From a virus (Duplodnaviria > Caudoviricetes), in the IMG/VR virus record IMGVR_UViG_3300037242_000178, positions 1-62,017 of that record: a stretch of 62,017 nt of DNA. One strand, 5' to 3'. Each line of letters begins with the position of its first letter. Position 1 is the first letter of the stretch. Of the stretch, positions 1,439 to 35,445 are shown piece by piece. The translations under genes were made by a program, and so were the position numbers. The notes beneath the pieces are model-generated. The model was not told the origin of the DNA, searched no databases, and saw only the letters and a program-made list of their open reading frames with translations.

Positions 1439-1987
1439 ATGAGCGACGCATTAAACAGAATAACCGATATGGCGAATCAGCTGATGCAAGCCGAAGAGAA
1501 AGTTGCGCAGCTTGAAGCCGACTTAAAATCCGCGAAAATCGCGCATCAAAAACTGGAACGCGAAGATTTACCTACGCTTATGACTGAACTTGAAATAAGT
1601 AAAATATCTTTGAACAACGGAGCGTCCGTGGAAGTGGTTCTCGATCTTGTTTGTTCGATTCCAGCAAATAGACGCGAAAGCGCGCATAGATGGCTCAAAG
1701 ATCATGGTTTTGGCGGGATTATAAAAACGAATCTCGAATTGTCATTCGGAAAGGATGAAATCGCGGCGGCAAAAGAAATTGCGGAAGAGATCGTGGAAAA
1801 ATTCGCTCGCACGCCAGAACTGACCGAAGGCGTTCACGCGCAAACGCTAAAATCGTTCATCAAAGAACGAAAAGAATGGGCGGCAAGCAACCCGGAAGCG
1901 AATGAGCGAGACCCATTCCCGGACGAATTGTTCGGGGTGTTCGAGTTCAACAAGGCGAAAATTACCATGCCAAAGGCAAAGAAGTAA
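1439..1987 (+). CDS. Conserved phage replication-module protein
   Basis: Coiled-coil N-terminus, WLKDHGFGGIIK and VHAQTLKSFIKE motifs; GGAG RBS. Confidence 0.65.
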   Translation: MSDALNRITDMANQLMQAEEKVAQLEADLKSAKIAHQKLEREDLPTLMTELEISKISLNNGASVEVVLDLVCSIPANRRESAHRWLKDHGFGGIIKTNLELSFGKDEIAAAKEIAEEIVEKFARTPELTEGVHAQTLKSFIKERKEWAASNPEANERDPFPDELFGVFEFNKAKITMPKAKK

Positions 1988-2036
1988 CAAGCGACGTTGC
2001 GCCGCTTAAGGAGCGCAACAAATCTGGAGCAATATC

Positions 2037-2888
2037 ATGGCTAAAGCCAAACACGAAAACACAGCAGTAGTTGAAGTAAAGTCGCATCCTATTTCAACAA
2101 AAGAGGCTCAGGAACTTTCGTTCGAAGAAGATCAAGGCGGCGGATTTGAAAATGTAACGGCGGAATCTGTCGCTCTTCCGTTTTTGGGAGTTTTGCAAAA
2201 AGGAAGTCCGCAAGTAGACGAAGCGCTAGGTCAAGCGATTGAAGGCGCAAAAGCAGGCATGTTTTTCGAAAACGTTACCGGTCGAATGTTTGACGGTAAA
2301 AAAGGCGTCCAGATTGTGCAATGCGCTTTTCGACGGGTGTATGTTCAATGGACACCGAAAGGCGTTCCTGGCGCAGGATTTAAGGGAGAGCTGTTGCCGG
2401 AAGCTGTGACGCGGCTTCACAACGAAGGAAAACTTGTCGAATTTGAACGATCTTTGTATGTTCCAAAGCCGGACGGATCGGTGAACCCGAAAGAATGCGA
2501 CATAATTGTCGATACGCGAAATCATTACGTATTGCTGCTGGACGAAGAAACTGGCGGTTGGACGAATGCGTTAATATCGATGTCGAAGACGCAAATTAAG
2601 AAGTCGAAGATGTTGATTGCGGGATTGGCAAGCGTAAAATTGAAAGGCGCTAACGGGATTTACACTCCGCCATCGTTTGCAAGCATCGTTCGGGCGACAT
2701 CTATCGGCGAGTCGAATGATAAGGGCAGTTGGTTCGGCATTAAATTCGACATCATAGGTAAAGTGGCCAGACCTGAAATATACGAAGCCGCCAAAGCGTT
2801 TAGGGATGTTGTAAATAAAGGAAATGTTGCGGCGAAATATGAGATGTCTACGGAAGGGTCTATCGACGTCGAACCTGAAAAATTTTAA
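2037..2888 (+). CDS. Putative ssDNA-binding/annealing protein
   Basis: LPFLGVLQKGSPQV and ESNDKGSWF motifs; acidic tail ending in F. Confidence 0.6.
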   Translation: MAKAKHENTAVVEVKSHPISTKEAQELSFEEDQGGGFENVTAESVALPFLGVLQKGSPQVDEALGQAIEGAKAGMFFENVTGRMFDGKKGVQIVQCAFRRVYVQWTPKGVPGAGFKGELLPEAVTRLHNEGKLVEFERSLYVPKPDGSVNPKECDIIVDTRNHYVLLLDEETGGWTNALISMSKTQIKKSKMLIAGLASVKLKGANGIYTPPSFASIVRATSIGESNDKGSWFGIKFDIIGKVARPEIYEAAKAFRDVVNKGNVAAKYEMSTEGSIDVEPEKF

Positions 2889-5826: not shown

Positions 5827-6213
5827 CTACGGATTAACCGACTGAACGAATGATATAGCGATTTGCACCGCGCCAATGGCCAGTGTAATATCGTTTTGCT
5901 GCGCCGTTGTCAACGCTACCGCTTTTGCAACGTCCATCAACAAGGGCACGGCTTGCGCATCGATGTTTTGCAAATCAAGATTAGTAAATACCGCTCCGTC
6001 CGCGCAAACCGCCGCGACGAGAGTTGAAGCTTTTTGAATATTCGCTTCCGCATCGGCAGGAAGGCCTACAAGGCCGGTTAAAGATGTTAACGCTACGTGG
6101 GCTGGCGGACAAACCTTTGCAACGATCTGCGCAGGCGTTTGGACTGTTGTGGTCGGTGTTGAAGAGCATCCGAGCAAGCATGCGGCAAGCAACGTTAAAG
6201 TAATCTTTTTCAT
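5827..6213 (-). CDS. Lipoprotein with hydrophobic C-terminus (candidate unimolecular spanin)
   Basis: MKKITLTLLAACLLG-C lipobox with +2 Ser; ITLAIGAVQIAISFV at the C-terminus. Confidence 0.65.
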   Translation of the reverse strand: MKKITLTLLAACLLGCSSTPTTTVQTPAQIVAKVCPPAHVALTSLTGLVGLPADAEANIQKASTLVAAVCADGAVFTNLDLQNIDAQAVPLLMDVAKAVALTTAQQNDITLAIGAVQIAISFVQSVNP

Positions 6214-6637: not shown

Positions 6638-7948
6638 TTAAGAGTGAATCGCTACATGCGACGCGCCTTGAAGCTGCTGCGGCACTCCGACGAGACTGGC
6701 GAGAATCGTCGATTGGTCCGCCGTAACCGTCGTCAAAATGTTGTGAAGAGTTGCGTTGTTTCCTTGTCCAGCTTGTATGGCAATCGCCGCATCTTCCGCA
6801 ACCTGTATTTTATTTTGGAATATCCCCGATTCCGTCATCATGTTAGGATCGTTATTCGTTCCCGACCATACGCCGCCCTCGAATGTGTTACTCCAATTTC
6901 CGAGAGCTTCGCCAGCCGTGATAATTTGCGCGGCCACAGCGCCTATAGTAGCGCCTCCTGCAAGCTCTCCTAACAGCGCCGTCATGCCTGCCGGTAGCGC
7001 GTTCCGACCTAATACATTTTGGTAAAGTTGATTAATAATTTGCGTATTGGTCATCCCGGCGAAATCGGCTTGCGCCTCCGAGGACGCAAAGATGGAATCG
7101 CACATGTTCGCAACGGTCATTGCGCCGTTATTCAGCGCAGCCGAGAAAGCCGTCATACCGGACAAAGCCGATGCGCGCCCAAGGATCGCGACAAATGCGG
7201 CAGATACGGCTTGCGTGTTAGAGTTTTGTGTGAGATCAATGCCGTTAAATCCATTTATCGCGTCGATTGCCAGTAAATTAATCGCCCCTGCGCCATCGAA
7301 ACTGCTCAAAGATATTTGGAACAAACCCTTAGCTCCATAAGCCGATCCCCACGATTCGACTGTCAGCATGTCCGTATTGGTGTTGACCGCAACAATCGCT
7401 ACCTCATGCAACCCTGCGGCTGCGCCCGTATCCATGCCGTTTTGGTTTGCCAAATTTGAAATAGTTTCTTCGGCAAAGAAGCCTGCGCAAGCTTCAAACT
7501 CCATGAGCAGCGGTTTCATTTGGTTTAAATACCCAGCGATTTCATTCGCTAACCAATTGTCAGCGCTCCCTGTTAGCACTGTTAGCGGTGTGATTCCGGT
7601 TACAGTATGCGTTGCCGCGTCGGCAAGATCGGTAGCGCCAGGCGCAGTCGTGTAATCACCATATTGGATTGTTGTATTTTGAGTCAAGCCGGACGTCTGC
7701 AATAGCGATAACGCCTCGGAAACATTCGTTCCAGCGTCTACGCCTAGCTGACCTTGCGCTTGCAGGTTCAGGTTGTATTGAAATTCCGCGTTTGAATTAA
7801 AAACAGGGCCATATAAGGATGTCGTCAGAGCAATTAGATTGGTTGTCGCGCACTCAACGCAATCCCCGACATTCCCCTGAGTCAGAACAGGCTGAGGGGT
7901 GAATGGAATTAGCGAATCATTGCTTTGCAGGAATGTTGTTGTCATCAT
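6638..7948 (-). CDS. Papain-like (C1) cysteine protease fused to a DUF4214-like domain
   Basis: QGNVGDC, GLHEVAIV and ESWGSAYG motifs; QLYQNVLGR-type helical repeats. Confidence 0.75.
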   Translation of the reverse strand: MMTTTFLQSNDSLIPFTPQPVLTQGNVGDCVECATTNLIALTTSLYGPVFNSNAEFQYNLNLQAQGQLGVDAGTNVSEALSLLQTSGLTQNTTIQYGDYTTAPGATDLADAATHTVTGITPLTVLTGSADNWLANEIAGYLNQMKPLLMEFEACAGFFAEETISNLANQNGMDTGAAAGLHEVAIVAVNTNTDMLTVESWGSAYGAKGLFQISLSSFDGAGAINLLAIDAINGFNGIDLTQNSNTQAVSAAFVAILGRASALSGMTAFSAALNNGAMTVANMCDSIFASSEAQADFAGMTNTQIINQLYQNVLGRNALPAGMTALLGELAGGATIGAVAAQIITAGEALGNWSNTFEGGVWSGTNNDPNMMTESGIFQNKIQVAEDAAIAIQAGQGNNATLHNILTTVTADQSTILASLVGVPQQLQGASHVAIHS

Positions 7949-8156
7949 CGACTTTCGTGTTAGAAAGATTCATTTTAACACTAGAAAGTGAATTTGCAAG
8001 AAAATGCGCAAAAGTAACGATTAACGCTGCGAGAGCCATTTCTATATCGTTCGGCATATGCATGCCACAAAGCGTGTTCGCGATCCAATCGATGACGGAC
8101 GCTAGCTGAATGGTGACGAGGGCCGCTCCTCCAGTGTGGGCTGCGCTGGCGCTCAT
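7917..8156 (-). CDS. Putative holin (two transmembrane segments)
   Basis: Overlaps the endolysin stop; two hydrophobic helices. Confidence 0.55.
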   Translation of the reverse strand: MSASAAHTGGAALVTIQLASVIDWIANTLCGMHMPNDIEMALAALIVTFAHFLANSLSSVKMNLSNTKVDDDNNIPAKQ

Positions 8157-8638
8157 GCCAGGCTCCCGCCAGCGGAAGTATAGGCGTTTTGCAATGCCGC
8201 CATGCTGTTTTCGTGTTGCATGTATTGGCTTCCAGGCAGCGATGCCCACCGGCTATTGCACTTTATAATCGCGCTTGAAAAATTTCCAGCGATTATATCG
8301 TCAAAAGCATGACATTCGTGAATCAGCTGGATAGCGATCCTATCCTGACTACGCGGCCCGAAATCCGGGAGCAAGAGCTGTTTTTTGTACGGTTCAAAAT
8401 ACCTAGCCATAAGTTGATATCTTCCTGCCGCATCGCTATTCAACGCCTTGTCGAAAATGTTCGGATGCGAAACAAAGCTTTTGAACACGAGCGGATTTGC
8501 TGGCGTGCTTCCTACCAAAATTAGGTAGCCGTCATCAGTGACAGGATTAGCAAGTAACGAAGGCCCGATTTCGGAAAACGCAACGCAATCTAAAAATGCG
8601 TTGAGATTTGCAGGGACGATATTTTTTGAAAACGACAT
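8153..8638 (-). CDS. Endolysin, lambda R-like lytic transglycosylase
   Basis: AFLDxxAxSE, AAGRYQ, DFGPRSQD and WASLPG motifs. Confidence 0.92.
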   Translation of the reverse strand: MSFSKNIVPANLNAFLDCVAFSEIGPSLLANPVTDDGYLILVGSTPANPLVFKSFVSHPNIFDKALNSDAAGRYQLMARYFEPYKKQLLLPDFGPRSQDRIAIQLIHECHAFDDIIAGNFSSAIIKCNSRWASLPGSQYMQHENSMAALQNAYTSAGGSLA

Positions 8639-8925
8639 TATTTATCCGCCTTTTGATCTAATCTATCTCGAAACATATTCGCCATCGAACTGATATCCGT
8701 TCGAATCTGATCTATTCTGTCGAAAATAGATGCAAGCATGTCCTTGTCTGGGTGATGCGTCGCGACATGCGTTTTGAATAAAGCTAAATCTTCTTTCAGC
8801 TTTTCCAACCCTAGCACATTCTGCCGGATATTGAACCAGATTACAATCCCAAAAGCCGTGGTGACAAACCCCAAAAGACTAAGAAAAATTGTAATCACCT
8901 CGAACCACGTCAATTGTCCGTTCAT
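8638..8925 (-). CDS. Single-TM coiled-coil protein (holin/antiholin-like)
   Basis: N-terminal TM; ends LDQKADK; directly upstream of the endolysin. Confidence 0.6.
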   Translation of the reverse strand: MNGQLTWFEVITIFLSLLGFVTTAFGIVIWFNIRQNVLGLEKLKEDLALFKTHVATHHPDKDMLASIFDRIDQIRTDISSMANMFRDRLDQKADK

Positions 8926-8926
8926 T

Positions 8927-9400
8927 TTACGCCTGTTCGTGATGGATGATTTCAACGCTAGAAAATTGATAACCTTCTTTTGCATATCGCTGCGCGAGCC
9001 AAACAGGTTCCGGCAAGCAATGGACGCCCTCATCCTTGCCTATGTGGTGCGCTTTGCATAGTAATCTGCCATTTACGTTCATGTCATCGACGAAAGTATA
9101 AGGATTCGTTTCATCGAAACTTCCCCATCCGAAATGAGGGAAATCCTTTCGGATTTGCGATTCTTCTGACCAGTCGATCATTTCTGCGAATGAGCGTTCT
9201 ATTGGCCAGTGATGCGCCTCTGGAGGGTGTCCAGTCTCTTTCTCTGTGCATCCGCAAATCCAGCATTTCCCTGCTTGTGCCGCGATTAAGTGCAGTCTGG
9301 ACTTTCTGAATAACGGAGATGTTACGCGCGGATCATGTCCAGGTAAATTCACGTCTACCGTAAAAGTGTTTTTCTCTTCATGAGTTTCATTTATCGACAT
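8927..9400 (-). CDS. HNH-like zinc-binding protein
   Basis: CWICG, EAHH and LCKAHH...GVH motifs. Confidence 0.55.
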   Translation of the reverse strand: MSINETHEEKNTFTVDVNLPGHDPRVTSPLFRKSRLHLIAAQAGKCWICGCTEKETGHPPEAHHWPIERSFAEMIDWSEESQIRKDFPHFGWGSFDETNPYTFVDDMNVNGRLLCKAHHIGKDEGVHCLPEPVWLAQRYAKEGYQFSSVEIIHHEQA

Positions 9401-9402
9401 GA

Positions 9403-10503
9403 TTAATATTCCACCATTACAAAACCGGGCGCGCCTGCGCCGCCGGTCGTTGTTGTCGCTCCTGAGTACCCCCCAGAAGCGCCCCCTCCGCCGCCGCCGC
9501 CAGAACCGTAACCTGCTGCCGCGCCGCCATTGCCACCGACCGCGCCGGTTGCTGACGTCCCAGTGCCAGCGCCGCCGCCGCCGCCGCCGCCGCTAATTCC
9601 GCCTGCGTAACCGATAGCGCCGTTGCTGACTCCTGCAAGACCGGGAGCGCCGCCGCCGCCGCCGGAACCGGTGCCGCCGATAGCCGCTTCACCTCCCGAT
9701 CCGCGAAACTTGTTGTCCAAATATGTGCGTGCGGTATAAGCGTATATAGATGAGTCTTCGCCGCTGCTGCCTGCAATATTAACTCCTGGAGTTCCGCCCG
9801 ACGCCGCGCCGCCAGAGCCGCCCCCTGCGCTTGTGCTTCCTGCGCCGCCAACGCCGCCGCCGCCTGCGCCTGTCGAAGCAGCGGAGCTAGTGCCAGCAAC
9901 GCCAGTCCCGCCAATCCCAAGGCCATTACTAATCCCGGAAGCAGCCCCGCCGCCGCCGGAACCGGCGTATCCGGTTGACGAGTTGGTATATCCAGCCCCG
10001 CCAGCACCGCCAACGGGGCCTGTCAAATTAAGCGTTCCGCCCGATGCCGTCCCGCCAGCGCCGCCGGTTCCGCCAGTGCCGCCAGCGCCGTTCGATCCTG
10101 TTCCGCCAGCGCCGCCGTTGCCGCCTGCATTCGCGATAACCGGCGTGGCGAGTCCAAATTCTGCTATAGAACTGGATATGGTTACAGCGTAAGTGCTGCT
10201 CGGATTAAGAGTAGTGATAATCTGAGCGAATCCACCGCCGCCGCCGCCACCGCCACCACCGCCGCTGCCATGGCCGCCTGTAGCGTCATTCCCCCCGCCA
10301 GCGCCGCCAGCGCCGCCCGGGCCAAAGCAGGTAATCCGCGCATTTTGTGTCGAAGCAAGAAAAGAAGCGTTAAAATTGCTGCTCGCAAGGTATAAGCGAA
10401 TATTCCCTGTTCCAAAAACTTCTTGCCCTAGTCCTGCTGAAAAAGTAAGCAGGAATGCCGCTAGATTTGCATTCGATTGAGTAAAATCAGATAGTTTTGC
10501 CAT
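9403..10503 (-). CDS. Glycine-rich tail fibre-associated protein
   Basis: Poly-Gly tracts; ends GFVMVEY; follows the tail fibre gene. Confidence 0.75.
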   Translation of the reverse strand: MAKLSDFTQSNANLAAFLLTFSAGLGQEVFGTGNIRLYLASSNFNASFLASTQNARITCFGPGGAGGAGGGNDATGGHGSGGGGGGGGGGGFAQIITTLNPSSTYAVTISSSIAEFGLATPVIANAGGNGGAGGTGSNGAGGTGGTGGAGGTASGGTLNLTGPVGGAGGAGYTNSSTGYAGSGGGGAASGISNGLGIGGTGVAGTSSAASTGAGGGGVGGAGSTSAGGGSGGAASGGTPGVNIAGSSGEDSSIYAYTARTYLDNKFRGSGGEAAIGGTGSGGGGGAPGLAGVSNGAIGYAGGISGGGGGGGAGTGTSATGAVGGNGGAAAGYGSGGGGGGGASGGYSGATTTTGGAGAPGFVMVEY

Positions 10504-11813
10504 TACACCAATCTCCAAAAAGACGAAGCTGAAACAGCTGCGATATAAAATTGAGCGTCGGAAATATTCGCTAGGAACGTTGAAGCGCCATCCGCAATAG
10601 CCAACGCAAGCGTCGGGCCGCCGCCGATGTTGTGCCCGTTGCCGTTAATCGTAAGATTATTGACGCCCCAGTAGTTCATTTCATCGACGAACGTGTAGGC
10701 CCCAGACACCGACGCGGAAAGCGTCAACGTGATTGCGCCACCTGTCGTATCGACGTAATAAACTCCGGGCAGCAATGATTGCGACGAGTTTATGACCTCG
10801 CCGCCGAATGCCGGGAGCGGCCCGCCATCCTCAATCGTCCCTTCGTCATCAACGAATACAGAAATATGCCCTGGAACGATGCTGCCGCTACCTGTCACTG
10901 CCGACACAGTACCTGTGTTGGAACTGGCATTTGCCAGCGCGGCAGTGCCTAAACACGTCGCGGTCAACTGCCAGTAAGTGCCGTCGTAAGTCGCGGTCAA
11001 AATATTCCCTGCGACGATCTCGCCGCCATTCAATGCGATTGGCCCGGTTGGGCCATCTTGACGCATCGATTTTGTTCCAAAGGAGCCAACAGCCAGTGTC
11101 ATTGCGCCGGTGTTGGTGTACCCGGCTTTCCACCGGATTTCTGTGCCTGTCGCAAGCGTTTGCAACGCGGTTGGAACAGTCAAAATTTGCGCATTTGCCG
11201 ATCCCGTCGATGTGCCGCAGTAGAATGTGCTGTAGGCGGCGCTTGACGTCAATTGCGTCCACACCGCGCCCGATGCGTTGCCGGTTGTCGTGCAAATCCA
11301 CAAAACTTTATTCGTCGAATCCCACAGAATCGACGATGCCAGAAAGTCATTAATGGGAGAAATGCCCGCAACAAATCCGTTCGGATTCCCGGCATAAACC
11401 AGCCCGCTGTTGATTTGTTGCCAGTTCGCGCCGCCGGTATCTGGATCGGTAGTGTTGTTGTCGGCAGTGCTTAACCACCATGACCCGCCCGCTGCCGAAT
11501 AAAGCAGCGCGCCATTCGGATAGCCGCCGATGGCAGTCGAAAAGGCGGAGTCATAAACAACTGCCGCGCCCGCGTTCTGCCATTGAGACCAAGCGGTAAT
11601 TTGATTAAGGATTCCATTCTCATCTTGTCCGAACGGAAAAGCGCCGCCAGCCGTGACGGGAACGAATGTCAATGGCGGAAACCCGTCAGTCAACGATGCC
11701 GCGCCCGCCTGAATGCCTTGTTGAGATGCGACAGGGATCGGGCGAATGTAATCCGACCCGGCATCTGCGCCCCACGGAATTGGGAATTTTATCGGAATTT
11801 GACTGGCTTGCAT
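10503..11813 (-). CDS. Tail fibre protein
   Basis: N-terminal PIPWG...GFPPLT...GGYPNGA anchor typical of this myovirus type; follows DUF2612. Confidence 0.8.
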   Translation of the reverse strand: MQASQIPIKFPIPWGADAGSDYIRPIPVASQQGIQAGAASLTDGFPPLTFVPVTAGGAFPFGQDENGILNQITAWSQWQNAGAAVVYDSAFSTAIGGYPNGALLYSAAGGSWWLSTADNNTTDPDTGGANWQQINSGLVYAGNPNGFVAGISPINDFLASSILWDSTNKVLWICTTTGNASGAVWTQLTSSAAYSTFYCGTSTGSANAQILTVPTALQTLATGTEIRWKAGYTNTGAMTLAVGSFGTKSMRQDGPTGPIALNGGEIVAGNILTATYDGTYWQLTATCLGTAALANASSNTGTVSAVTGSGSIVPGHISVFVDDEGTIEDGGPLPAFGGEVINSSQSLLPGVYYVDTTGGAITLTLSASVSGAYTFVDEMNYWGVNNLTINGNGHNIGGGPTLALAIADGASTFLANISDAQFYIAAVSASSFWRLV

Positions 11814-11822
11814 GTGCTTTCC

Positions 11823-12455
11823 CTAGATTTGAACGACACTCGCCAATACCCCAGCAGGGCGTGGCAATACGTTTGAATTAAACACGATAGAGATTTGAAC
11901 TGGCGATAACGCGAAAGCAAACGTGTAAGTCATGGTCATGTCGAGATTATCTGTGCAGTACGATATTTGCCCAGGGAATAATGCTTGAAGAATCTTGTTC
12001 AATCCAGGAATGGAACCGTCCCAAATATTCGCGGCAGCTTTTGCCAAAATTAATTGACGAAACGCGCCATCCGACAGCGTGACGTTTTCCGTCAGCGCTT
12101 CGCCGGAATACCAGATTCCCGTGCCCCAATTACCGCCGGATAAATCCATCGCCTCTTCAAACGCAAGATACTTCGTTGGATAGACGGTCAACACGCGACC
12201 GGTGTTTAGTCCGACGATACGCCCCCACACATCCAAGCCATAGCCGACAGCCGTATCCACATTCCAAACGTTGTCGAACCATCCGTCAACCGTGCCACTA
12301 GCATCGACGGCTTGCGAAAAGTAATCGATCAACTGCGTGAGGACAGGCGAGTTTGCGTATTGCGAAAATAAGGTTTTGCCCCAGTCGAAAGGTTGCGCGC
12401 CTATCGGGCTTTCACCAATGATGAATTCACCAATACCGTTTGGGATTTGAGACAT
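11823..12455 (-). CDS. Baseplate wedge protein (DUF2612-like)
   Basis: SQYANSP, GYGLDVWGRIVG and LPRPAGV motifs. Confidence 0.85.
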   Translation of the reverse strand: MSQIPNGIGEFIIGESPIGAQPFDWGKTLFSQYANSPVLTQLIDYFSQAVDASGTVDGWFDNVWNVDTAVGYGLDVWGRIVGLNTGRVLTVYPTKYLAFEEAMDLSGGNWGTGIWYSGEALTENVTLSDGAFRQLILAKAAANIWDGSIPGLNKILQALFPGQISYCTDNLDMTMTYTFAFALSPVQISIVFNSNVLPRPAGVLASVVQI

Positions 12456-12493: not shown

Positions 12494-12529
12494 ATGAAAA
12501 ACGCTCAATCGTCAAAAACGATTGAGCGT
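12494..12529 (-). terminator. Intrinsic terminator after the 12566-13126 gene
   Basis: 12-bp perfect stem ACGCTCAATCGT/ACGATTGAGCGT followed by a U-run on the minus strand. Confidence 0.8.
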
Positions 12530-12565
12530 CACGCTATGCCCGGATTAATTTCAATCCATATTGAC

Positions 12566-13126
12566 TTACAGAAGCACCGGAATCTGAGTGCTTGTCGCCG
12601 GGCCGAAAGTCTGCGTGGCTACAGGCCGCGCAGGGCAGCATTCATCTCGATGCCCTCGACCGTCACGGTCGTGATGATGAGCGAATTTCGAATACATTTC
12701 AGCAAATCTTAAATCAGCCACTTTCTGTTCGTTTATCAACGAGCGCGTCGTGGCCCCGTCAGCAACCAACTGCTGTCCGAGCAATGCGCTTGCTAATTGT
12801 GCGGCGGAAGCGGTTTGAACGGCATTCAATTCAATCGCTGCCAACGTTGCCGCGTTTTGCGCATTTACTTGCGCGGTCAACGAAGCTAAAGCGGTAGCGG
12901 TGGAAAACTGCTGCGCTTGCGCGGCAATGAAATACGCGGTCGATTGATCGGTTACGCGGTCGGTCTTGTTATCGATTTTGTCGGAAATTTTGAATGCATT
13001 TTCCGCAGTCGCATACCGACCGGCGTCGGCTTGCATTGCTGTTTCCCTACGAATATCCGCTTCAGCTTTCAGCACTGAAGTTAAATCGACTTGCCCAGTT
13101 ACGGTGCCTGTTACGATATCAGCCAT
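12566..13126 (-). CDS. Moron-like alanine-rich helical protein
   Basis: AAGGA RBS, AT-rich upstream region and its own terminator. Confidence 0.7.
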   Translation of the reverse strand: MADIVTGTVTGQVDLTSVLKAEADIRRETAMQADAGRYATAENAFKISDKIDNKTDRVTDQSTAYFIAAQAQQFSTATALASLTAQVNAQNAATLAAIELNAVQTASAAQLASALLGQQLVADGATTRSLINEQKVADLRFAEMYSKFAHHHDRDGRGHRDECCPARPVATQTFGPATSTQIPVLL

Positions 13127-13157
13127 GAGGTAATCCTTAAGTGATTTAGAAGGTTGT

Positions 13158-13200
13158 TTATGGTTCTGTCACGTTTTGATTCTTGTTGACAAAACCATAA
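13158..13200. promoter_or_regulatory. 14-bp inverted repeat in the leader of 12566-13126, just downstream of a minus-strand TATAAT
   Basis: TTATGGTTCTGTCA-N15-TGACAAAACCATAA. Confidence 0.5.
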
Positions 13201-13268
13201 TCAATTATATTCCAAATCAATGACGAGAAGATGACAAAAAATAAATTTTTATTGGATGTTAAAATTGT

Positions 13269-14189
13269 TCAATATGTAATAACTATGACACCGTTTCCAC
13301 CGTTAATTCCGCTGTCGCCGCTATCGCCGCCAGCGTATCCGCCGCCGCCGCCGCCATTCGCGTTTATCTCACTACCGCCGCCGCCGCCGCCTGGCCCGTA
13401 GCCAGCTCCCCACGGCGAATAAGTGTAAGTCGATCCCGCAGACGAAACTTTCGCAGACGATCCGCCGCCCCCGCCGCCGCCGCTAGACGACGCCCCCGCA
13501 GCAGCAGACAGCGTAGCGCCAGTGCCTCCGCCTGATCCGCTCGGGCCGCTGCCGCCGTTACCGCCGCTGCCGCTGCCGCCATTCGATCCCGCTGTGCTAC
13601 TCGATCCGCCAGCCCCTCCGCCTCCACCTCCGCCCGTCACGGATTGATTCCCTCCGTTTTGACCGGCACCGTTCGGGCCGCCTGCCCCTCCGCCCCCTCC
13701 GCCTCCGCCAGTTCCGCCGTTACCGCCTGCGTATTTCACGTTTCCGACCGACGCTGTAACGGCGCAACCCGCCCCAGGGCTGCTCCCTGGAGCGGCATAA
13801 ACTCCGTTCGTTGTTAATGTCGGTTGGCTGTTCGCGGCGATGTTGATCCAACTCCCTGTGACGGACGCTCCCGAACCAACTTGATAGTGAACAGGACTTC
13901 CGGGAGTCACCGTAAGACTTGTAGATTTCGCATAACAACCGCCGCCGCCGCCCGGCCCACTTTCTGAGAAATCTGCGCCGCCTGCGCCGATAGCTTCCGC
14001 ATTAATGGTAATAACACCTGCTGGTACAGTCCATGAGCCGGAACCGAGAGTAGTAACGATTACTACTCCGTGCGATGCGTTCCCGCCGGATGCTCGGAAA
14101 AATTTCCCTGCGCTAAATGGCGCTGAAGAAGCGCAGACGGTCGTAAGAAGCGCCGCTAGTAAAAATGCCTTCAGAAGATTTATCATCAC
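13269..14189 (-). CDS. Glycine-rich fibre-like protein with Sec signal peptide
   Basis: MMINLLKAFLLAALLTTVCA leader; WTVPAGV...GAGG and poly-Gly; ends GVIVITY. Confidence 0.75.
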   Translation of the reverse strand: MMINLLKAFLLAALLTTVCASSAPFSAGKFFRASGGNASHGVVIVTTLGSGSWTVPAGVITINAEAIGAGGADFSESGPGGGGGCYAKSTSLTVTPGSPVHYQVGSGASVTGSWINIAANSQPTLTTNGVYAAPGSSPGAGCAVTASVGNVKYAGGNGGTGGGGGGGGAGGPNGAGQNGGNQSVTGGGGGGGAGGSSSTAGSNGGSGSGGNGGSGPSGSGGGTGATLSAAAGASSSGGGGGGGSSAKVSSAGSTYTYSPWGAGYGPGGGGGGSEINANGGGGGGYAGGDSGDSGINGGNGVIVITY

Positions 14190-14818
14190 GACCCCGTAAA
14201 ATTCGCGCCGCCAGATTGTCCGTAGGTATATGTCGTGTCATGCGCCATGAAAACGTAGAAGTCGCACTTTCCGCTGACACTGGTAGCTGTTGGGGCCGTA
14301 GCTGCTGGCCACGATAGAGTGCCTCCGCCCGCCCATGTGACCGTGTACACGCCGCCATAGCACACTTGTATCGTGAACGACTGACCAGCAGCAGGCGTTG
14401 GCAGCGTAATAGTGGTATTCGCCGCCAACGAGAGCTTATGAAACGTGCATGTGGTATTGGATATCGTCACCGCGCCAGCTGAGATAGTTGGAGTATCCGC
14501 GCATTCTGTGTATCCGTTTATGGTAGGAGTGGTCAATACCGGTGTAGCGACAGTAGGAGATGTGTCAACCACAAATTTAGTGCCGGTGCCGGTTTGCGAC
14601 GCGATACTTGTCGCGTTGCCGGACGACGTAATAACACCGGTTAAATTTGCATTGGTTACGACTGTCGTTGCGCAACTTCCAGCCGAGGCGGTGACGCTAC
14701 CGGTTAGCGCCGGTTGATTCGCGCATTGCATATTTGGCGACGTCTGCGTGATCGTCTGCGCATTACAGACCCCGCATAAAAACAATATCGACGCGATGAG
14801 AATTTTAAAGCGAGTCAT
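14186..14818 (-). CDS. Fibre-like protein with Sec signal peptide
   Basis: GGAGG RBS; MTRFKILIASILFLCGVCNA-Q leader; C-terminal domain TVTWAGGGTLSWP. Confidence 0.75.
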   Translation of the reverse strand: MTRFKILIASILFLCGVCNAQTITQTSPNMQCANQPALTGSVTASAGSCATTVVTNANLTGVITSSGNATSIASQTGTGTKFVVDTSPTVATPVLTTPTINGYTECADTPTISAGAVTISNTTCTFHKLSLAANTTITLPTPAAGQSFTIQVCYGGVYTVTWAGGGTLSWPAATAPTATSVSGKCDFYVFMAHDTTYTYGQSGGANFTGS

Positions 14819-14866
14819 CCTTGCCTCCGTAAATACGCCCCTCCTAAATCGGGCCGATGTTTTCAA

Positions 14867-15772
14867 TCAGATGGCAACGGAAACGAGCAACCAGACATCA
14901 ACCGATCCAGCAGTCAATGTAGAAAGGTTCCCTCCCGTTGAATTCGCGGTAATCGTAATCGAATTCGTCGCTGTCTGGCTCGCGCCAAATAGCGATGCCA
15001 CTAGCTGATAGTTTGTCGCTGTTACTGCAGAAAAGACATCCCATGTTGGAGTAATCGCGGTGTTCGTTCCGCCGTACCCAATCGACACGTTCACGTCCGA
15101 TACAGAACCGCCGCTAAATGCCGTGCTTTGCTTCACTTTTGCCGTCTGGATTACTCCGCCTGCGGCAAGGGTGTACAGAGTAATCGTTTGAGTCGTTGCG
15201 GCAGATGTAAATGACGTGTAAGGAACGGTTGTTTTGACCCACGAAGGCCCTGACGATGAGCTGGCAAAACAATTTGACGACGAAGTGGAAATGATATGAC
15301 CTGAAGAGTCGGAACAAATCGAATTTGCGATAGTGCCCGAAGTAGTTAAACCGGACATCATCACATTGCCGGTTGCTGACAGTGTGGTTGCGCTAATAGC
15401 TGCGGGCGCAGTGCCGCCAATAGCGGGAGGGGAAGCCAGATAAGTGCTGAAACCGCTACCCGAAACGGTAGATGACGCGCTTAAAGCTGTAAACGATCCC
15501 GCCGCCGCGCTTGAACCGCCAATAGCGGGAGGGGAAGCCAGATAAGTGCTGAAACCGCTACCCGAAACAGTGGACGACGCGGATAAGGTCGTAAATGCGC
15601 CGGTTGATGGCGTGGTTGCGCCAATCGTCGTACCGTCTATTGTACCGCCGGTGAACAGTACGTTCGCTGATTGAGTAATGATTGTTTGCGCTTCAAGGCC
15701 TATAGACAGCGCCGCAAAAAATCCTAGAAGAACATATTTTAAACTTCGACCCACCTTCTTAAAAGAATCCAC
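14867..15772 (-). CDS. Fibre-like protein with Sec signal peptide
   Basis: YVLLGFFAALSIGLEA-Q leader; GGTIDGTTIGATTPSTGAFT fibre motif; C-terminal domain paralogous to 15783-16850. Confidence 0.75.
   Translation of the reverse strand: MDSFKKVGRSLKYVLLGFFAALSIGLEAQTIITQSANVLFTGGTIDGTTIGATTPSTGAFTTLSASSTVSGSGFSTYLASPPAIGGSSAAAGSFTALSASSTVSGSGFSTYLASPPAIGGTAPAAISATTLSATGNVMMSGLTTSGTIANSICSDSSGHIISTSSSNCFASSSSGPSWVKTTVPYTSFTSAATTQTITLYTLAAGGVIQTAKVKQSTAFSGGSVSDVNVSIGYGGTNTAITPTWDVFSAVTATNYQLVASLFGASQTATNSITITANSTGGNLSTLTAGSVDVWLLVSVAI
15414..15568. repeat. 53-bp exact internal duplication, 102-bp period
   Basis: 15414-15466 equals 15516-15568. Confidence 0.9.
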
Positions 15773-15782
15773 GATAAAGCTC

Positions 15783-16850
15783 CTAAAGCGCAGTTGAAAT
15801 TAATGCCCACACATCGACTGACCCGGCGGCAAGCGTCGAAAGATTCCCCCCGATGGAGTTGAATGTTGCAGTAACATTCGTTGTTGCAGTTCTCGACTCC
15901 GCCCCATTCGTCGTGACCAGTTCGTAATTCGTCGCGCTTGGCGCGCTGTAGACGCTAAACGCTGGCGCATATTTAGCGAGACTGCCGGAAACGCCTACAG
16001 AAGCGGTTACAGCCGAGATTGAACCGCCCGTAAAAGCGATGCTCTGCTGAATTAAGACTTGATGCACAATGCCACCGGCAGGCAGAACGAATAGCGTTAC
16101 AGTATCTGTCGTCGCCCCCACACTTATCGAGGTGTAAAGCACCGTGTATTTTGCCCAGAAAGGCGCTCTAGGCGCGTCGGACGGAACTATCGCACGGAAA
16201 CCCGGCTGTGCGGCACTGCCGCTGGCAGGCCCGGCAAAAACAGTGTTTGCGGACTGTGTATTAAGCGTTTCATTGATCGTTCCGCTAGTCGTGATTGGGG
16301 AATTCGTTATCGTATAAATTGGCGTAGACGACGCATCGGAAAAGCCGACAGAGGATACCGTTCCGCTGCTGCTGCAACTTCCGTTCGACGCTGCGGTAAG
16401 TTGCCCTGCCGCGTTTGCCGTAATGTTCGCGCACGTGTAAGGGCCGGGAGTAATGCCTGTTGGTGTGATCGTCGTTGCCGCGCCGGTAGTCGTCACCGGA
16501 CCTGTCAAGTTTCCCCATCCAGGCACGCCAGCGCTGTTACTTAACATCAATGCGCTATCCAGCGGAAGAATAAAGCTCGTCAAGTTCGGAGCGGTTTGAT
16601 AGGGGATGTAATTCGCTGCTCCCCCATAAATGTTTGTGATCGGAGATGGCGCAGCCCAATAAGCCGTCGTGCCGTTGGAGGTAAAGACATTCCCTGCCGT
16701 GCCGGGAGCGAGATAGTCTTGCTTGTTTGAAAAATAAAGATTCCACTGCCCTGCCGTGGGTATTTGTCCGTAGGTAAATCCTGGCGATGTTTGCGCAAAG
16801 GATGAAAGCAACTTTAACGCTAGGGCGAATCCTAAAATAATCTTTTTCAT
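15783..16850 (-). CDS. Fibre-like protein with Sec signal peptide
   Basis: [20 protein letters not shown] leader; GTVSSVG...PITTSGT and NTVFAGP fibre motifs; ATGA-coupled to baseplate J. Confidence 0.78.
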
Positions 16851-18481
16851 GTCGCAGTCGTCACATTAATGTTGGCCGCTGCCGTCACCGGCATTTGATT
16901 TATCAGCATTTGAATGCTTGTCGCATTCATTCCCAAAACGTTCATCGATTCGCTTCCAACGGTTTGGGAACTCGATACCGTGTACGTGCCCGTTGAGCCA
17001 GAGGAACCTGTCAACTGCGCTTTAATATACGTCCCCACCGTTACGCCTGTTCCGATCAAAACTTGCCCAACAGCCAGCGCGCCGCCAGTCGCTGTCACTG
17101 TTAAAACGGTCGTTGCGATTGATGCGGTTATCGCAAATGCGGGCGCGGCAGAACTTCCAATTGTCAATCCGGTAATTAATGCCCACGAGCCGAGCGCGTA
17201 AATCCCCTGGTAATATCGACTGGTTAAAATTAACGTTTCCATTTGCATGCGCAAACCGCCATCGCCGCCGATGAAAGCGTTCAAAATCGCATTTTGAATC
17301 AACGTGCTTGCGTTGGACGGAACGGCAGGCGACGGATAAATACTGACGTTAAAGTATATTTCGACATCAGGCGGGTTTTCGAACGAGATCGCATAAGGAA
17401 TTCCTGGCGTGCTATAGACGTAGCTTGTATCATAAACCGTTTCTGTCGTATTGCCTTGAAGTCCGCAACCAGGCGGTTTTTTGCTCCAAATCGCATTGGC
17501 GATATCTTGCGCCGTGCCCCCCGCAACGCTTATATAAAGCGTATTCGCTTCAATGCTTACCCCTCCAAGCTGAAGCGGAATGGCCGCCGCCGTCGTTTGG
17601 CTCACGGAAACCGTATAAGGACTGCTGGAACCGCTAACAATCGTTGTGCCGTATGTTACCCCAGGCCCGCTAATAACTTGCCCTATAGCGACAGTCCCAG
17701 AGAGAACAGCATCGATCGTCAACGATGTTCCGCTGATCGATCCCGTAATCGTCGATACCGGATTGACAGCGTAAGGATAATTGTAAAAATTATCTTGAAC
17801 ATAAGCACCCAACACATTTGCAACATTAAGAATCGTCCCGAGAACGGATTGGGGAGTGTTGAGTGAATTGGCTGCGACGGAATTGAACCGGCGCGTTTCG
17901 AACTGCGATCTGCTTTCGACTAGCGATCCTTCTGCGCCATCCGCTGGATTATTGATTGTGTCCCATCCGCTGACGCCGGAAACGATTGTCGTCAATGTAT
18001 TTTCCGGGCACGGAATCGGGCCTTGCGCGACGTTTGCGAACGGCAAAACGATGCTGCCACCTCCCGGGCCGCCAGGAAGTGTTCCCGCTTGCATGCACAT
18101 ATAAGTATTTCCAGACACATCTTGCGCTAGCGCGCCAACAGGAATTGTTGCACTTAAGCCTGAGCAAGTGCATTGAACGACCGTGCTAGCTGCGGGGATG
18201 CGCGTCATGTAGTAAATCCGCCCGATGGCGTCCTGCATGCGGCCTGAAGCGAAAGCTGGATCGACGCCATTAAAAAGGGCGAGGAGTAAGTCGTTTGTGT
18301 TTCCGATGATTGCAGTCTCGCTCACCGATAATTGCGTTTGCGGCGTTGCGGTCGAAGTAAAATTCAACCCATTGCCGAATGCGGAATTGATGTCGGCTTG
18401 CACGCCTGCGAGGATTGCCGATTCCGCAGGCGCAATGTAGCCGTTCGCTCCGAGCGAAACTGGAGGGACGTTCGTTGTCAT
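16847..18481 (-). CDS. Baseplate J-like protein with two inserted beta domains
   Basis: [24 protein letters not shown] and IANAIWSKK motifs. Confidence 0.88.
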
Positions 18482-35300: not shown

Positions 35301-35445
35301 GCGTTTCGTCTTCGTCAGCTCTGCCGCCTGGAAAATCCCATTCGTTCGGATGATTCGCGTCGGGAGAGCGCAATAGGAATAGCGCCTCTCCTTCAGGCGT
35401 GACCAGCATTATTCCTGCGCCTTTGATTTTTTCGTCAACTGACAT
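32326..35445 (-). CDS. Polyprotein: Nudix hydrolase, cargo domains (incl. DUF5710-like) and DUF2213-like prohead protease/scaffold
   Basis: Nudix box GGRADEDETPEETAKRETREEIG; YLNVKYDDKDHAKKHGARWD; ISKANV...EISCAY...NHIALVQVGRAG. Confidence 0.85.
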   Translation of the reverse strand: MSVDEKIKGAGIMLVTPEGEALFLLRSPDANHPNEWDFPGGRADEDETPEETAKRETREEIGAMPYGELEQLADTSSKDDSGSDVDFITYRMFVRHKFTPKIDKSEHTAFVWRKLVDAPEPMHHGMREVVDAAMGKMAKDASQHWITSQTGTHLLLNGEGEVIGGAGGSLNGKKLSPKSKSKDVTKLLGYSPKASEQPSKKIDLKTAFNDLETSEFKGELSDEQRKSIQKNEDLYKKHGPKGEGSRSQWKEQVKSGKFDHLLKEHEEVVQKNAEEAKERARTEREKRAEPYRQAAIKRAEIEAKRKSEEAKRKSEAAAARQEEREKSLAKPFEKPTEHETLTVPKKIIKETDAAYGVENPGQGEKDVLWIPKSASKAHGYEIKSMAPWLADKLNFGTHERQERKQKEAVQRTYLNVKYDDKDHAKKHGARWDADKKKWYHSGGELPKELEKYSSNAASPQTKAVSGAQNQSATVKRQMPTTGRIDENDPSIWGHELLGHEGELWADFHRRHAPRYEPASAAEVEFDSALGEDAGFYCGYTQDQIAVMNRENAQDSDFKESDHPRANDSLTFDKASVRTVDQDGRMHIALTHISKANVCQYAGAEIPDYQKLGLQADKVYLLYRDPEELKKGASTANNIPLLNDHVAVDVTDHKPDSIVGATGTDAVFNAPYLDQSLVIWTKDAICGVETGRQQEISCAYYYRPDMTPGVSPDGSHYDGVMRDIKFNHIALVQVGRAGHDVRVASDSKINFNPGVLTMSKLSKKAVLAHGALLAVLTPKMLAADSQIDLNKILEGVKRKNWLEKKPGIIAAVKPHLAADADLKDIVALLDKLDSEKPDDDNVAMDDPGPKCESILGMLRGKISDEDLMQIESMLSAKPVEKAKAKDEPTQTPGAATANPGGKKDKDAAKGMDDKENKEDMMDAKEMKKAMDKAIQLACDATEKKTEAKVMANMRAIVEAEEFIKPYVGKLVAMDSAEAVYKAALEAMKIDIKDLHPSAYKSVLAAQQKPGEAHKSRIAQDAQPQGDGMEKAFPELLRLVK

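What the first reader, a model, noticed from the sequence alone, without database searches (positions are those of the whole stretch)
13269..16850. Four consecutive fibre-like genes with Sec signal peptides and paired cysteines inside the baseplate operon
Seen: between baseplate J and DUF2612, which are normally adjacent, lie four genes. Each has a basic-hydrophobic signal peptide: ...LSSFA|QT, ...GLEA|QT, ...VCNA|QT, ...TVCA|SS. The mature parts carry tail-fibre-type motifs or a Gly-rich domain and have 2, 2, 6 and 2 Cys, largely as local pairs. The two signal-less fibre genes downstream have 3 and 1 Cys. The first gene is ATGA-coupled to baseplate J. Known: tailed-phage virion proteins normally fold in the cytoplasm. 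Inference: an exported, disulfide-stabilised appendage built in the periplasm and attached at lysis, or a secreted or surface receptor-blocking complex derived from fibre genes.
Basis: partly seen in the sequence, partly recalled or inferred. Interest (0 to 1): 0.87.

Follow-up and report, generated by a model that had tools for sequence, protein, structure and literature searches.

The report
Phage tail fibres carrying export signals
Four neighbouring tail-fibre-like genes of this phage begin with secretion signals, and they belong to a large, unnamed group of phage fibre proteins that seem to be made outside the cytoplasm, which is not how tailed-phage particles are thought to be built.

Summary
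Downstream of baseplate J lie four co-oriented, tightly packed genes (g1-g4), each with a Sec-type leader. No plausible start lies downstream of any leader. A fifth, leaderless gene and a terminator-like hairpin precede DUF2612.

The leader is conserved. g1's leader plus a mature N-terminal motif defines a family of 1356 clusters; 144 of the best 149 members show a leader. No library names the family, and no deposited phage carries it. In 61 viral contexts it lies almost always in J-type myovirus baseplate/fibre modules.

Export is supported by cysteine statistics. Of 125 family members, 101 have an even cysteine count, 16 odd and 8 none, mostly as local pairs. Leaderless fibre homologues are cysteine-poor.

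In eight related loci the primary, baseplate-docking fibre also has a leader. In seven of these it has a cysteine pair that is absent from 99 leaderless homologues.

Best reading, probability about 0.5: the fibres are Sec-exported, fold in the periplasm and join the particle at lysis. Export itself I rate about 0.9.

Main rival: exported proteins that stay in the host envelope.

Everything is computational; virion proteomics was not possible.

The parts
16847..18481 (-). Baseplate wedge protein J (544 aa), no leader. Its stop overlaps the g1 start.
   Evidence: phrog_6 baseplate wedge subunit, E 6.5e-38; 302 relatives in viral contigs; ATGA overlap read
15783..16850 (-). g1 (355 aa): leader-bearing fibre, the member of the new family in this window.
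   Evidence: Its homologues are phage tail fibre or tailspike proteins.
16794..16850 (-). g1 leader, residues 1-19: basic MKK, a hydrophobic core holding one Lys, and SFA before Gln.
   Evidence: The AlphaFold model has a helix at 2-16. In the alignment A1 this region varies in sequence but stays hydrophobic.
16713..16793 (-). g1 conserved mature N-terminal motif, residues 20-46. Invariant in A1: P23, G28, P31, Q35, W36, K43, D45. Proposed docking peptide.
   Evidence: Profile search found 1356 clusters. Predicted helix at 33-43. Mean pairwise identity 61%, against 50-54% for J, gpW, DUF2612 and the primary-fibre N-domain.
15786..16163 (-). g1 C-terminal beta-sandwich (jelly-roll) domain, residues 230-355, shared with g2.
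   Evidence: 52% identity to g2 over 126 aa. pLDDT about 80-90. Foldseek matches phage cement proteins and the lambda gpJ tip, E 3e-5 to 9e-4.
14867..15772 (-). g2 (301 aa): leader residues 1-28 (15689-15772), fibre-type repeats with an internal duplication, and the same C-terminal domain as g1.
14186..14818 (-). g3 (210 aa from the ATG): leader residues 1-20 (14759-14818), 6 mature Cys in three local pairs, and a C-terminal beta domain common in phage fibre tips.
   Evidence: phrog_5596, E 2e-8. The same C-terminal domain ends the leader-bearing fibre of L010. The model is poor and its fold search gave nothing significant.
13269..14186 (-). g4 (305 aa): leader residues 1-19 (14130-14186) followed by a glycine-rich domain.
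   Evidence: Two of its 8 homologues carry Pfam Gly_rich_2, and two homologues have a Sec-type leader. L010 holds a leader-bearing homologue. g4 itself hits no Pfam model.
13127..13268 (-). AT-rich 142-nt gap after g4; end of the tightly packed block.
12566..13126 (-). Leaderless 186-aa ORF of unknown family. Probably a separate insert and not part of the exported set.
   Evidence: No family in Pfam, PHROGs, PADLOC or NCBIfam. No homologue in the related loci.
12500..12530 (-). Terminator-like hairpin (14-bp stem and a T run) between the 186-aa ORF and DUF2612.
   Evidence: This is a consensus match only.
11823..12455 (-). DUF2612 baseplate protein (210 aa), no leader.
   Evidence: PF11041, E 3e-51
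10503..11813 (-). Primary tail fibre (436 aa), leaderless here. Its N-terminal ~130 aa are conserved in all relatives.
   Evidence: phrog_12796 tail fiber protein, E 8e-34. Alignment A2. Its nearest relatives in the tree include the leader-bearing clade.
9403..10518 (-). Leaderless glycine-rich fibre protein (371 aa).
   Evidence: No family hit. No BLAST similarity to g4.

Best explanation
g1-g4 are tail-fibre-type proteins made late from the baseplate operon. The Sec pathway exports them, signal peptidase I cleaves them (leaving N-terminal Gln in g1-g3), and they fold in the periplasm, where their paired cysteines are oxidised to disulfides. They stay apart from the particles, which assemble in the cytoplasm with the leaderless fibres. 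They attach to the baseplate when holin and endolysin action mixes the compartments, or just after release. g1 docks through its conserved mature N-terminal motif, and g2-g4 join it or each other.

Supported by comparative sequence evidence only; nothing was measured: the leaders, their conservation, the cysteine signature, the position in the fibre module, and the existence of relatives whose primary fibre has a leader.

Inferred: actual export, disulfide formation, docking, the time of attachment and the reason for export.

I put export at about 0.9 and the whole model at about 0.5.
For: The gene block is tight and co-oriented, with an ATGA overlap with J.

Leader plus motif are conserved in 14 of 14 orthologues. 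The leader varies in sequence but stays hydrophobic. The family has 1356 clusters at E<=1e-3. Of the 149 best, 144 pass the leader rule; of the other five, three have mis-called upstream starts, one has an Asp in the leader, and one (P0267, 132 aa) carries the motif only at residues 86-131 and shows no leader.

Each of three bacterial genomes holds a single copy, inside the prophage.

Of the 71 viral loci, 61 motif-bearing genes were called in 58, nearly all beside hub, gpW, J, DUF2612 and the primary fibre. Seven of ten contexts that BLAST left unclear were confirmed with PHROGs.

Members carry tail-fibre hallmarks: of 84 scanned, 3 have Peptidase_S74, 2 a pectate-lyase-like domain, 1 Beta_helix and 1 Gly_rich_2.

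Cysteines: leader-bearing fibre homologues have 0.87 per 100 aa (n=32), leaderless ones 0.31 (n=104), Mann-Whitney p 6e-7; even:odd counts are 21:7 against 21:46. Of 125 family representatives, 101 are even, 16 odd and 8 zero (binomial p 1e-16), with a median pair spacing of 16 residues.

The gene just downstream of a family member has a leader in 15 of 42 cases. After a leaderless primary fibre it is 1 of 46.

In 8 loci, one of them a Bradyrhizobium prophage, the primary fibre itself has a leader in front of its conserved docking domain. Among distinct N-termini, 7 of 8 leader-bearing ones have Cys at two conserved sites 21 residues apart, against 0 of 99 leaderless ones. No leaderless fibre gene was seen in those modules.

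The motif is conserved about as well as the baseplate proteins: 61% against 50-54%.

Bdellovibrio MAT fibres show that phage-type trimeric fibres with S74 domains can carry signal peptides and work outside the cytoplasm (PMC10769870, passages read).
Against: No virion data exist. No deposited phage carries the family, so particle association is inferred only.

The leader calls rest on my own rule, not on SignalP.

The g1-type motif is almost never found without a leader. The exceptions are a 127-aa ORF in L180 and the fragment P0267. A pure docking role does not predict this; it could mean the motif works in the envelope.

8 of 125 members have no Cys, among them the Paraburkholderia prophage member. 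Disulfides therefore cannot be the general reason for export.

The family is accessory: it occurs in 6 of 29 viral and 2 of 42 genome J-relatives with at least 5 kb downstream.

Members of up to 1645 aa would have to lie sideways in a periplasm.

The leader/Cys co-variation in the primary fibre is one clade plus one further gain of a leader. It is one or two events, not eight.

Only 14 kb per locus was seen, so a leaderless fibre gene elsewhere in those genomes is not ruled out.
Confidence: 0.5

Rival explanations
1. The proteins are exported but never join the virion. They stay in the periplasm or on the envelope of the infected cell, held by the conserved N-terminal motif. There they could mask or degrade receptors, which would shield progeny from debris or exclude other phages. 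They could stick infected cells to neighbours. The pectate-lyase-like members could clear polysaccharide before release.
For: The leaders are universal and the cysteine signature is strong. The motif is almost never leaderless. The family is accessory and sits at varying places in the module. 3 of 84 members have pectate-lyase-like or beta-helix domains. The MAT fibres of Bdellovibrio are anchored on the producer's own surface by a conserved N-terminal domain (PMC10769870). From my own recall, not from a call: T5 Llp and Cor-type lipoproteins are exported phage proteins encoded next to fibre genes.
Against: g1-g4 have no lipobox. g1 has no promoter gap and is translationally coupled to J, which points to late, structural-level expression. 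Only 1 of 61 family members shares a domain with a leaderless fibre of its own locus, so they are not exported copies of the phage's own receptor-binding tip. The family was seen only with one baseplate type, whereas a host-binding module would be expected to spread to other phage types. This reading leaves the phages whose primary fibre has a leader without any cytoplasmic fibre in the module. There is no PADLOC hit.
Confidence: 0.3
2. The hydrophobic N-termini are not export signals. The proteins stay in the cytoplasm and assemble as ordinary fibres, and the hydrophobic end is buried in the baseplate or acts on the host membrane during infection.
For: Tailed-phage virion proteins are normally cytoplasmic (established knowledge). 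The genes lie in the fibre module. SignalP was not run.
Against: The N-termini have a basic n-region, an uncharged core and small -3/-1 residues, and the sequence is free to vary. The boundary before Gln is conserved. Leader-bearing members are cysteine-enriched, with even counts and local pairs. A cysteine pair appears in the primary fibre only where a leader is present.
Confidence: 0.05
3. The block is a recently acquired insert with no lasting function, or its genes are mis-called.
For: The block interrupts the usual J-DUF2612 adjacency. A terminator-like hairpin follows it.
Against: G+C content is like the flanks. The frames are intact, with ribosome-binding sites. The same arrangement occurs in L003, L005, L009, L010, L015, L022, L026, L046 and the Paraburkholderia prophage L079. 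The family is very large.
Confidence: 0.02

Closest known systems
Mosaic adhesive trimer (MAT) fibres of Bdellovibrio bacteriovorus (PMC10769870; passages read)
   Same: Both have a signal peptide, then a conserved N-terminal domain, then a phage-type trimeric fibre shaft, then swappable tips. Some members of each have a Peptidase_S74 chaperone domain. The full-length MAT fibre was produced with a PelB leader.
   Different: MATs are chromosomal genes of a predator and sit on its own surface. Their conserved domain is about 130 aa and beta-rich. Here the genes lie inside phage baseplate operons and the conserved piece is about 30 aa with a predicted helix. Sequence relatedness was not tested.
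Ordinary tail fibres and tailspikes of contractile-tailed phages, such as the leaderless primary fibre of this window
   Same: Position in the module, a conserved N-terminus with variable tips, fibre repeat motifs, and S74 and pectate-lyase-like domains.
   Different: These have a Sec-type leader and a cysteine signature of oxidative folding. Known fibres fold in the cytoplasm (established knowledge).
Exported late or accessory phage proteins: spanins, SAR endolysins, T5 Llp, Cor, lambda Lom/Bor (recalled, not from a call)
   Same: They are phage-encoded proteins that use the host Sec pathway. Llp, Cor and Lom are encoded beside fibre genes.
   Different: Those are small lipoproteins, membrane proteins or enzymes, not fibre-like. 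g1-g4 have no lipobox.
Filamentous-phage coat proteins pIII and pVIII (recalled)
   Same: They are virion proteins with cleaved Sec signal peptides, and pIII has disulfides that depend on DsbA.
   Different: Those virions assemble at and extrude through the membrane. Here the capsid and tail are of the tailed-phage type.
Late attachment of T4 long tail fibres to finished particles (recalled)
   Same: Fibres are a separately assembled sub-structure, added as the last step.
   Different: In T4 everything happens in the cytoplasm.

Membership tests
Sec / signal peptidase I signal peptide | Basic n-region, uncharged hydrophobic core of about 8-16 residues, and small residues at -3 and -1 | tested here: met
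   My own rule passes g1-g4. Caveats: a Lys inside g1's core and Leu at -3 in g2. SignalP was not available.
Sec / signal peptidase I signal peptide | The leader is kept in homologues while its sequence drifts | tested here: met
   14 of 14 in alignment A1; 144 of 149 representatives
Sec / signal peptidase I signal peptide | Actual translocation and cleavage | not testable with these tools
   Needs PhoA fusions or N-terminal sequencing
Proteins folded oxidatively in the periplasm | Excess of cysteines, even counts, local pairs | tested here: met
   101 even, 16 odd and 8 zero of 125; median spacing 16. 0.87 against 0.31 Cys per 100 aa. g1-g4 have 2, 2, 6 and 2.
Leader-bearing fibre family defined here (profile A1) | A leader followed by the motif with invariant P, G, P, Q-W, K, D | tested here: met
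   g1 scores 106 bits. g2, g3 and g4 lack the motif, so only g1 is a member.
Phage tail fibre / receptor-binding protein | Homology to fibre proteins and a place in the tail module | tested here: met
   119 homologues of g1, several with fibre-tip Pfam domains. The context is a J-type baseplate.
Phage tail fibre / receptor-binding protein | Presence in the virion | not testable with these tools
   No isolate carries the family
Pfam Gly_rich_2 (PF21722), for g4 | Match to the model above its threshold | tested here: inconclusive
   g4 has no Pfam hit at E<=1. Two of its 8 homologues carry PF21722.
Superinfection-exclusion lipoproteins (Llp, Cor type) | A lipobox with Cys at +1 | tested here: not met
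   None of g1-g4 has a lipobox at the cleavage site. The lipoprotein of the window lies elsewhere, at 5827-6213.
Known anti-phage defence proteins | Match to a PADLOC model | tested here: not met
   0 families for g1-g4 and the 186-aa ORF
Bdellovibrio MAT fibres | A conserved beta-rich N-terminal domain of about 130 aa after the signal peptide | not tested
   No MAT N-terminal sequence was fetched. Here the conserved part is about 30 aa.

The most novel reading that the evidence does not exclude
A whole lineage of contractile-tailed phages of Pseudomonadota builds some or all of its tail fibres in the periplasm. The fibres, and probably their helper proteins, are Sec-exported and disulfide-bonded. 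They meet the particles, which are fibreless or only partly fibred, only when the holin breaches the inner membrane. Virion assembly is thus split between two cell compartments and finished by lysis itself.
Probability: 0.45. Interest if true: 0.95.

Novelty: new variant of a known kind. Interest (0 to 1): 0.85.

Why it matters
Textbook assembly of tailed phages is wholly cytoplasmic. If receptor-binding fibres are exported first, three things follow. Host Sec and Dsb functions become phage host factors. Fibres could carry disulfides or other periplasmic modifications that matter for stability in soil. Lysis becomes an assembly step.

Practically, engineered fibres of these phages would have to be made in the periplasm, and annotation pipelines that discard leader-bearing proteins as non-structural would miss receptor-binding proteins.

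If instead the proteins stay in the envelope, they are a large new class of phage-encoded surface or periplasmic fibre.

In both cases the family is large (1356 clusters), unnamed, and present in prophages of cultured Bradyrhizobium and Paraburkholderia, so the question can be put to the bench.

Tried and rejected
- Bacteroidota host (the 'Q-rule'): I dropped this. The nearest relatives are prophages of Pseudomonadota, and Gln at +1 is a feature of the family.
- T9SS-type C-terminal signal for the shared g1/g2 domain: not pursued further. The domain models as a viral jelly-roll.
- Word-indexed search with g1 residues 1-72: found only g1 itself. The profile search replaced it.
- tblastn against deposited phages: g1, no match; g3, no match; a typical family N-terminus, one partial weak hit outside the motif.
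- Complex prediction with three copies of the primary-fibre N-domain and three of the g1 mature N-terminus: 'no answer', score 0.01. This says nothing either way.
- g3 structure: poor model, pLDDT 52, and no significant fold match.
- g4 against the leaderless glycine-rich fibre, and g3 against the primary fibre: no BLAST similarity.
- PDB sequence searches: the motif profile gave nothing significant, and the primary-fibre N-domain gave one partial tailspike hit.
- ESM Atlas: only viral hypothetical clusters under the 0.9 mark.
- Tandem Repeats Finder missed the duplication in g2.
- Five literature searches found no paper describing signal peptides on tail fibres of tailed phages. I saw listings and abstracts only, except PMC10769870, where I read passages. 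Subscription journals are not covered.
- My first count of family members in genome loci gave 0 because of gene-calling in high-GC DNA. It was redone.
Full report
WHAT THE WINDOW IS. The window is a complete-looking virus record of 62,017 bp with direct terminal repeats. It encodes a contractile-tailed phage. Pfam and PHROGs find a portal, a DUF3383 protein, a tail terminator, a tape measure with a glucosaminidase domain, a Dit-like protein, an E217-gp41-like hub, a spike, a gpW-like protein, baseplate J, DUF2612, and fibres. It also carries replication genes, including a DNA polymerase III alpha subunit. No tRNA gene was found. G+C is even across the region.

THE OBSERVATION. On the minus strand, J (16847-18481) is followed by four genes.
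- g1, 15783-16850: its ATG overlaps J's TGA.
- g2, 14867-15772: GTG start behind GGAG.
- g3, 14186-14818: ATG start behind GGAGG.
- g4, 13269-14186: its start overlaps g3's stop.

Each begins with a basic stretch, an uncharged hydrophobic core, and small residues at -3/-1 before Gln-Thr (g1-g3) or Ser-Ser (g4). I ran a simple n/h/c rule of my own over 79 called ORFs, trying in-frame starts in up to the first 60 codons. It flagged 11. Five are convincing: these four and a lipoprotein at 5827-6213. The other six, two at the first start and four at internal starts, I judge weak. The same rule flags 80 of 1176 ordinary genes in related loci. No usable start lies behind the leaders.

There are two corrections. 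A fifth, leaderless 186-aa gene lies before DUF2612, behind a 142-nt AT-rich gap and ahead of a terminator-like hairpin. The mechanical ORF of g3 starts too far upstream.

J and DUF2612 are adjacent in 56 of 66 relatives in which both were called.

THE LEADER IS CONSERVED AND DEFINES A LARGE FAMILY. Relatives fetched through J (76 viral loci; 50 genome loci) show a similar gene directly after J in L003, L005, L009, L010, L015, L022, L026 and L046. The nearest cultured relative, a Paraburkholderia prophage (J 62% identical), has one too. Others carry it after the fibre genes: L004, L045, and prophages of Lichenihabitans and Bradyrhizobium.

In an alignment of 14 N-termini the leader is hydrophobic but not conserved in sequence. 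The cleavage boundary before Gln is kept in at least 90% of them. The next ~27 residues contain seven invariant positions.

A profile of this alignment finds 1356 clusters (50% identity) at E<=1e-3 among 1.84 billion representatives, and 659 at E<=1e-10. In the best 149, whose lengths run from 65 to 1520 aa, the match begins at the protein's N-terminus in nearly all. 144 pass the leader rule. Of the other five, three have mis-called upstream starts, one has an Asp in the leader, and one 132-aa fragment carries the motif at its C-terminal end with no visible leader.

Ten members looked up by exact sequence are named 'hypothetical protein' or carry no name; one UniRef entry reads 'glycine-rich domain-containing protein'. 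g1-g4 hit nothing in Pfam, NCBIfam or PADLOC. No deposited phage genome holds the family. Three bacterial genomes each hold exactly one copy, in the prophage.

WHERE THE FAMILY SITS. A scan of viral contigs with the motif gave 71 loci. I called 61 motif-bearing genes in 58 of them. Nearly all lie beside hub, gpW, J, DUF2612 and the primary fibre. Most follow the primary fibre, some follow J, and the upstream gaps are mostly under about 35 nt. Ten contexts were unclear by BLAST. PHROGs showed hub and wedge proteins in seven of them. Two lie at contig ends and one has no recognisable neighbour apart from a terminase.

The family is accessory. It occurs in 6 of 29 distinct viral and 2 of 42 genome J-relatives with at least 5 kb downstream.

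Members are true fibre or spike proteins. g1's homologues include proteins with K1-lyase C, T4 gp9/10 N, Gp53-like C, BppL N and Gly_rich_2 domains. Of 84 family members scanned, 3 have Peptidase_S74, 2 a pectate-lyase-like domain, 1 Beta_helix and 1 Gly_rich_2. Another protein had one sub-threshold hit to an unrelated model, and the remaining 76 hit nothing.

The g1 model has a helix over the leader, a helix at residues 33-43 in the motif, and a confident C-terminal jelly-roll shared with g2 at 52% identity. That domain resembles phage cement proteins and the lambda gpJ tip.

EVIDENCE FOR REAL EXPORT. Among g1's fibre homologues and the orthologues from loci, leader-bearing proteins (n=32) have 0.87 Cys per 100 aa. 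Leaderless ones (n=104) have 0.31 (p 6e-7). Even:odd counts are 21:7 against 21:46 (Fisher p 1e-4).

In the wider family, of 125 representatives of at least 200 aa, 101 have an even count, 16 odd and 8 none (binomial p 1e-16). Consecutive cysteines lie a median of 16 residues apart. This is the pattern expected of proteins folded in an oxidising compartment.

Leaders also cluster. The gene just after a family member has a leader in 15 of 42 distinct cases, against 1 of 46 after a leaderless primary fibre. The four-gene block of the window is one instance of this habit.

THE KEY COMPARATIVE RESULT. In eight loci the primary fibre itself has a 20-30-residue Sec-type leader. These are L139, L172, L165/L177, L178, L161, L156, L150 and the Bradyrhizobium oropedii prophage L109. 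The primary fibre's N-terminal domain is conserved in all relatives and normally starts the protein. Here the leader stands in front of that domain, and in most of these loci there is no Met at the usual start.

Among 107 distinct N-termini, 7 of 8 leader-bearing ones have Cys at two conserved sites 21 residues apart, where leaderless ones have Gly and Val/Ile. None of 99 leaderless ones does.

A quick tree (the careful search did not finish) puts the seven in one clade, SH-aLRT 97, next to the window's own fibre. L156 stands apart. This is therefore one or two events, kept through much divergence, not eight independent ones. No leaderless fibre gene is visible in those modules.

MECHANISM. 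These phages appear to have moved every fibre gene in view to the export route. The exported primary fibre also keeps its docking domain. The simplest reading is that exported fibres still end up on the particle. They would fold and oxidise in the periplasm and attach when lysis mixes the compartments.

In the window phage, the leaderless primary fibre and the leaderless glycine-rich protein would be added in the cytoplasm, and g1-g4 afterwards. g1 would dock through its motif, which is conserved about as well as the baseplate proteins (61% against 50-54%).

Export I rate at about 0.9 and the full model at about 0.5.

Against the model:
- there are no virion data;
- the motif is almost never seen without a leader;
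- 8 of 125 members have no Cys;
- the family is accessory;
- very long members would fit the periplasm poorly.

The main rival, at 0.3, keeps the proteins in the envelope as masks, depolymerases or adhesins. Two things weaken it. Only 1 of 61 family members resembles a leaderless fibre of its own locus. The family is also tied to one baseplate type.

COMPARISON WITH WHAT IS KNOWN. The nearest analogue is the MAT fibre family of Bdellovibrio: a signal peptide, a conserved N-domain, a fibre, swappable tips and S74 in some members (PMC10769870, passages read). Those are cellular surface adhesins, not phage genes.

Five full-text searches found no report of signal peptides on tail fibres of tailed phages. 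I saw listings and abstracts only, and subscription journals are not covered.

VERDICT. What is shown is a new variant of a known kind, tail fibres that carry export signals. If the assembly route is as proposed, it would be new for tailed phages.

Noticed in passing
window 12500-13268: A leaderless, helix-rich 186-aa ORF (12566-13126) with no family anywhere. An AT-rich gap lies upstream of it and a strong terminator-like hairpin (12500-12530, minus strand) downstream, so it looks like a self-contained insert between the exported block and DUF2612. DUF2612 and the fibres would then need read-through or a promoter of their own.
   Followed up: partly
window 5827-6213 (-): A 128-aa protein with a classic lipoprotein signal (lipobox ending in Cys). 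It lies apart from the endolysin (8153-8638) and a weak holin-like ORF (7917-8249). It may be an outer-membrane spanin or an exclusion lipoprotein.
   Followed up: no
window 15400-15590 (-), inside g2: An internal duplication of about 25 residues in g2, visible in the translation. Tandem Repeats Finder did not report it.
   Followed up: partly
window 32326-35445 (-): A 1039-aa fusion protein with NUDIX, DUF5710 and DUF2213 domains in the head module.
   Followed up: no
window 40239-41900 (-): A 553-aa protein with nine ALTTAQ repeats (Pfam E 7e-61), close to the portal gene.
   Followed up: no
window 8927-9400 (-): An HNH endonuclease directly after the fibre genes. Its end overlaps a 131-aa membrane-protein ORF (8638-9033). 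Homologues sit at the same place in L004 and L025.
   Followed up: no
L180:6992-7375: A 127-aa ORF that starts directly with the family motif and has no leader. It is one of two leaderless instances seen and may be a remnant.
   Followed up: no
protein P0279: A homologue of g4's glycine-rich domain is fused to a prepilin-type N-terminal cleavage/methylation domain in a bacterial metagenome-assembled genome. This is another route by which the domain is placed outside the cytoplasm.
   Followed up: no
L165:2762-3976 and its neighbours: Four genes in a row all carry leaders: the primary fibre, a 296-aa helical protein, the family member and a 386-aa protein. The 296-aa protein sits where a fibre chaperone would be expected.
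   Followed up: partly
window 1439-2888 (+): Homologues of Pam3 gp33 and gp34 (Pfam DUF7307 and Pam3_Gp34) on the opposite strand, near the left end.
   Followed up: no
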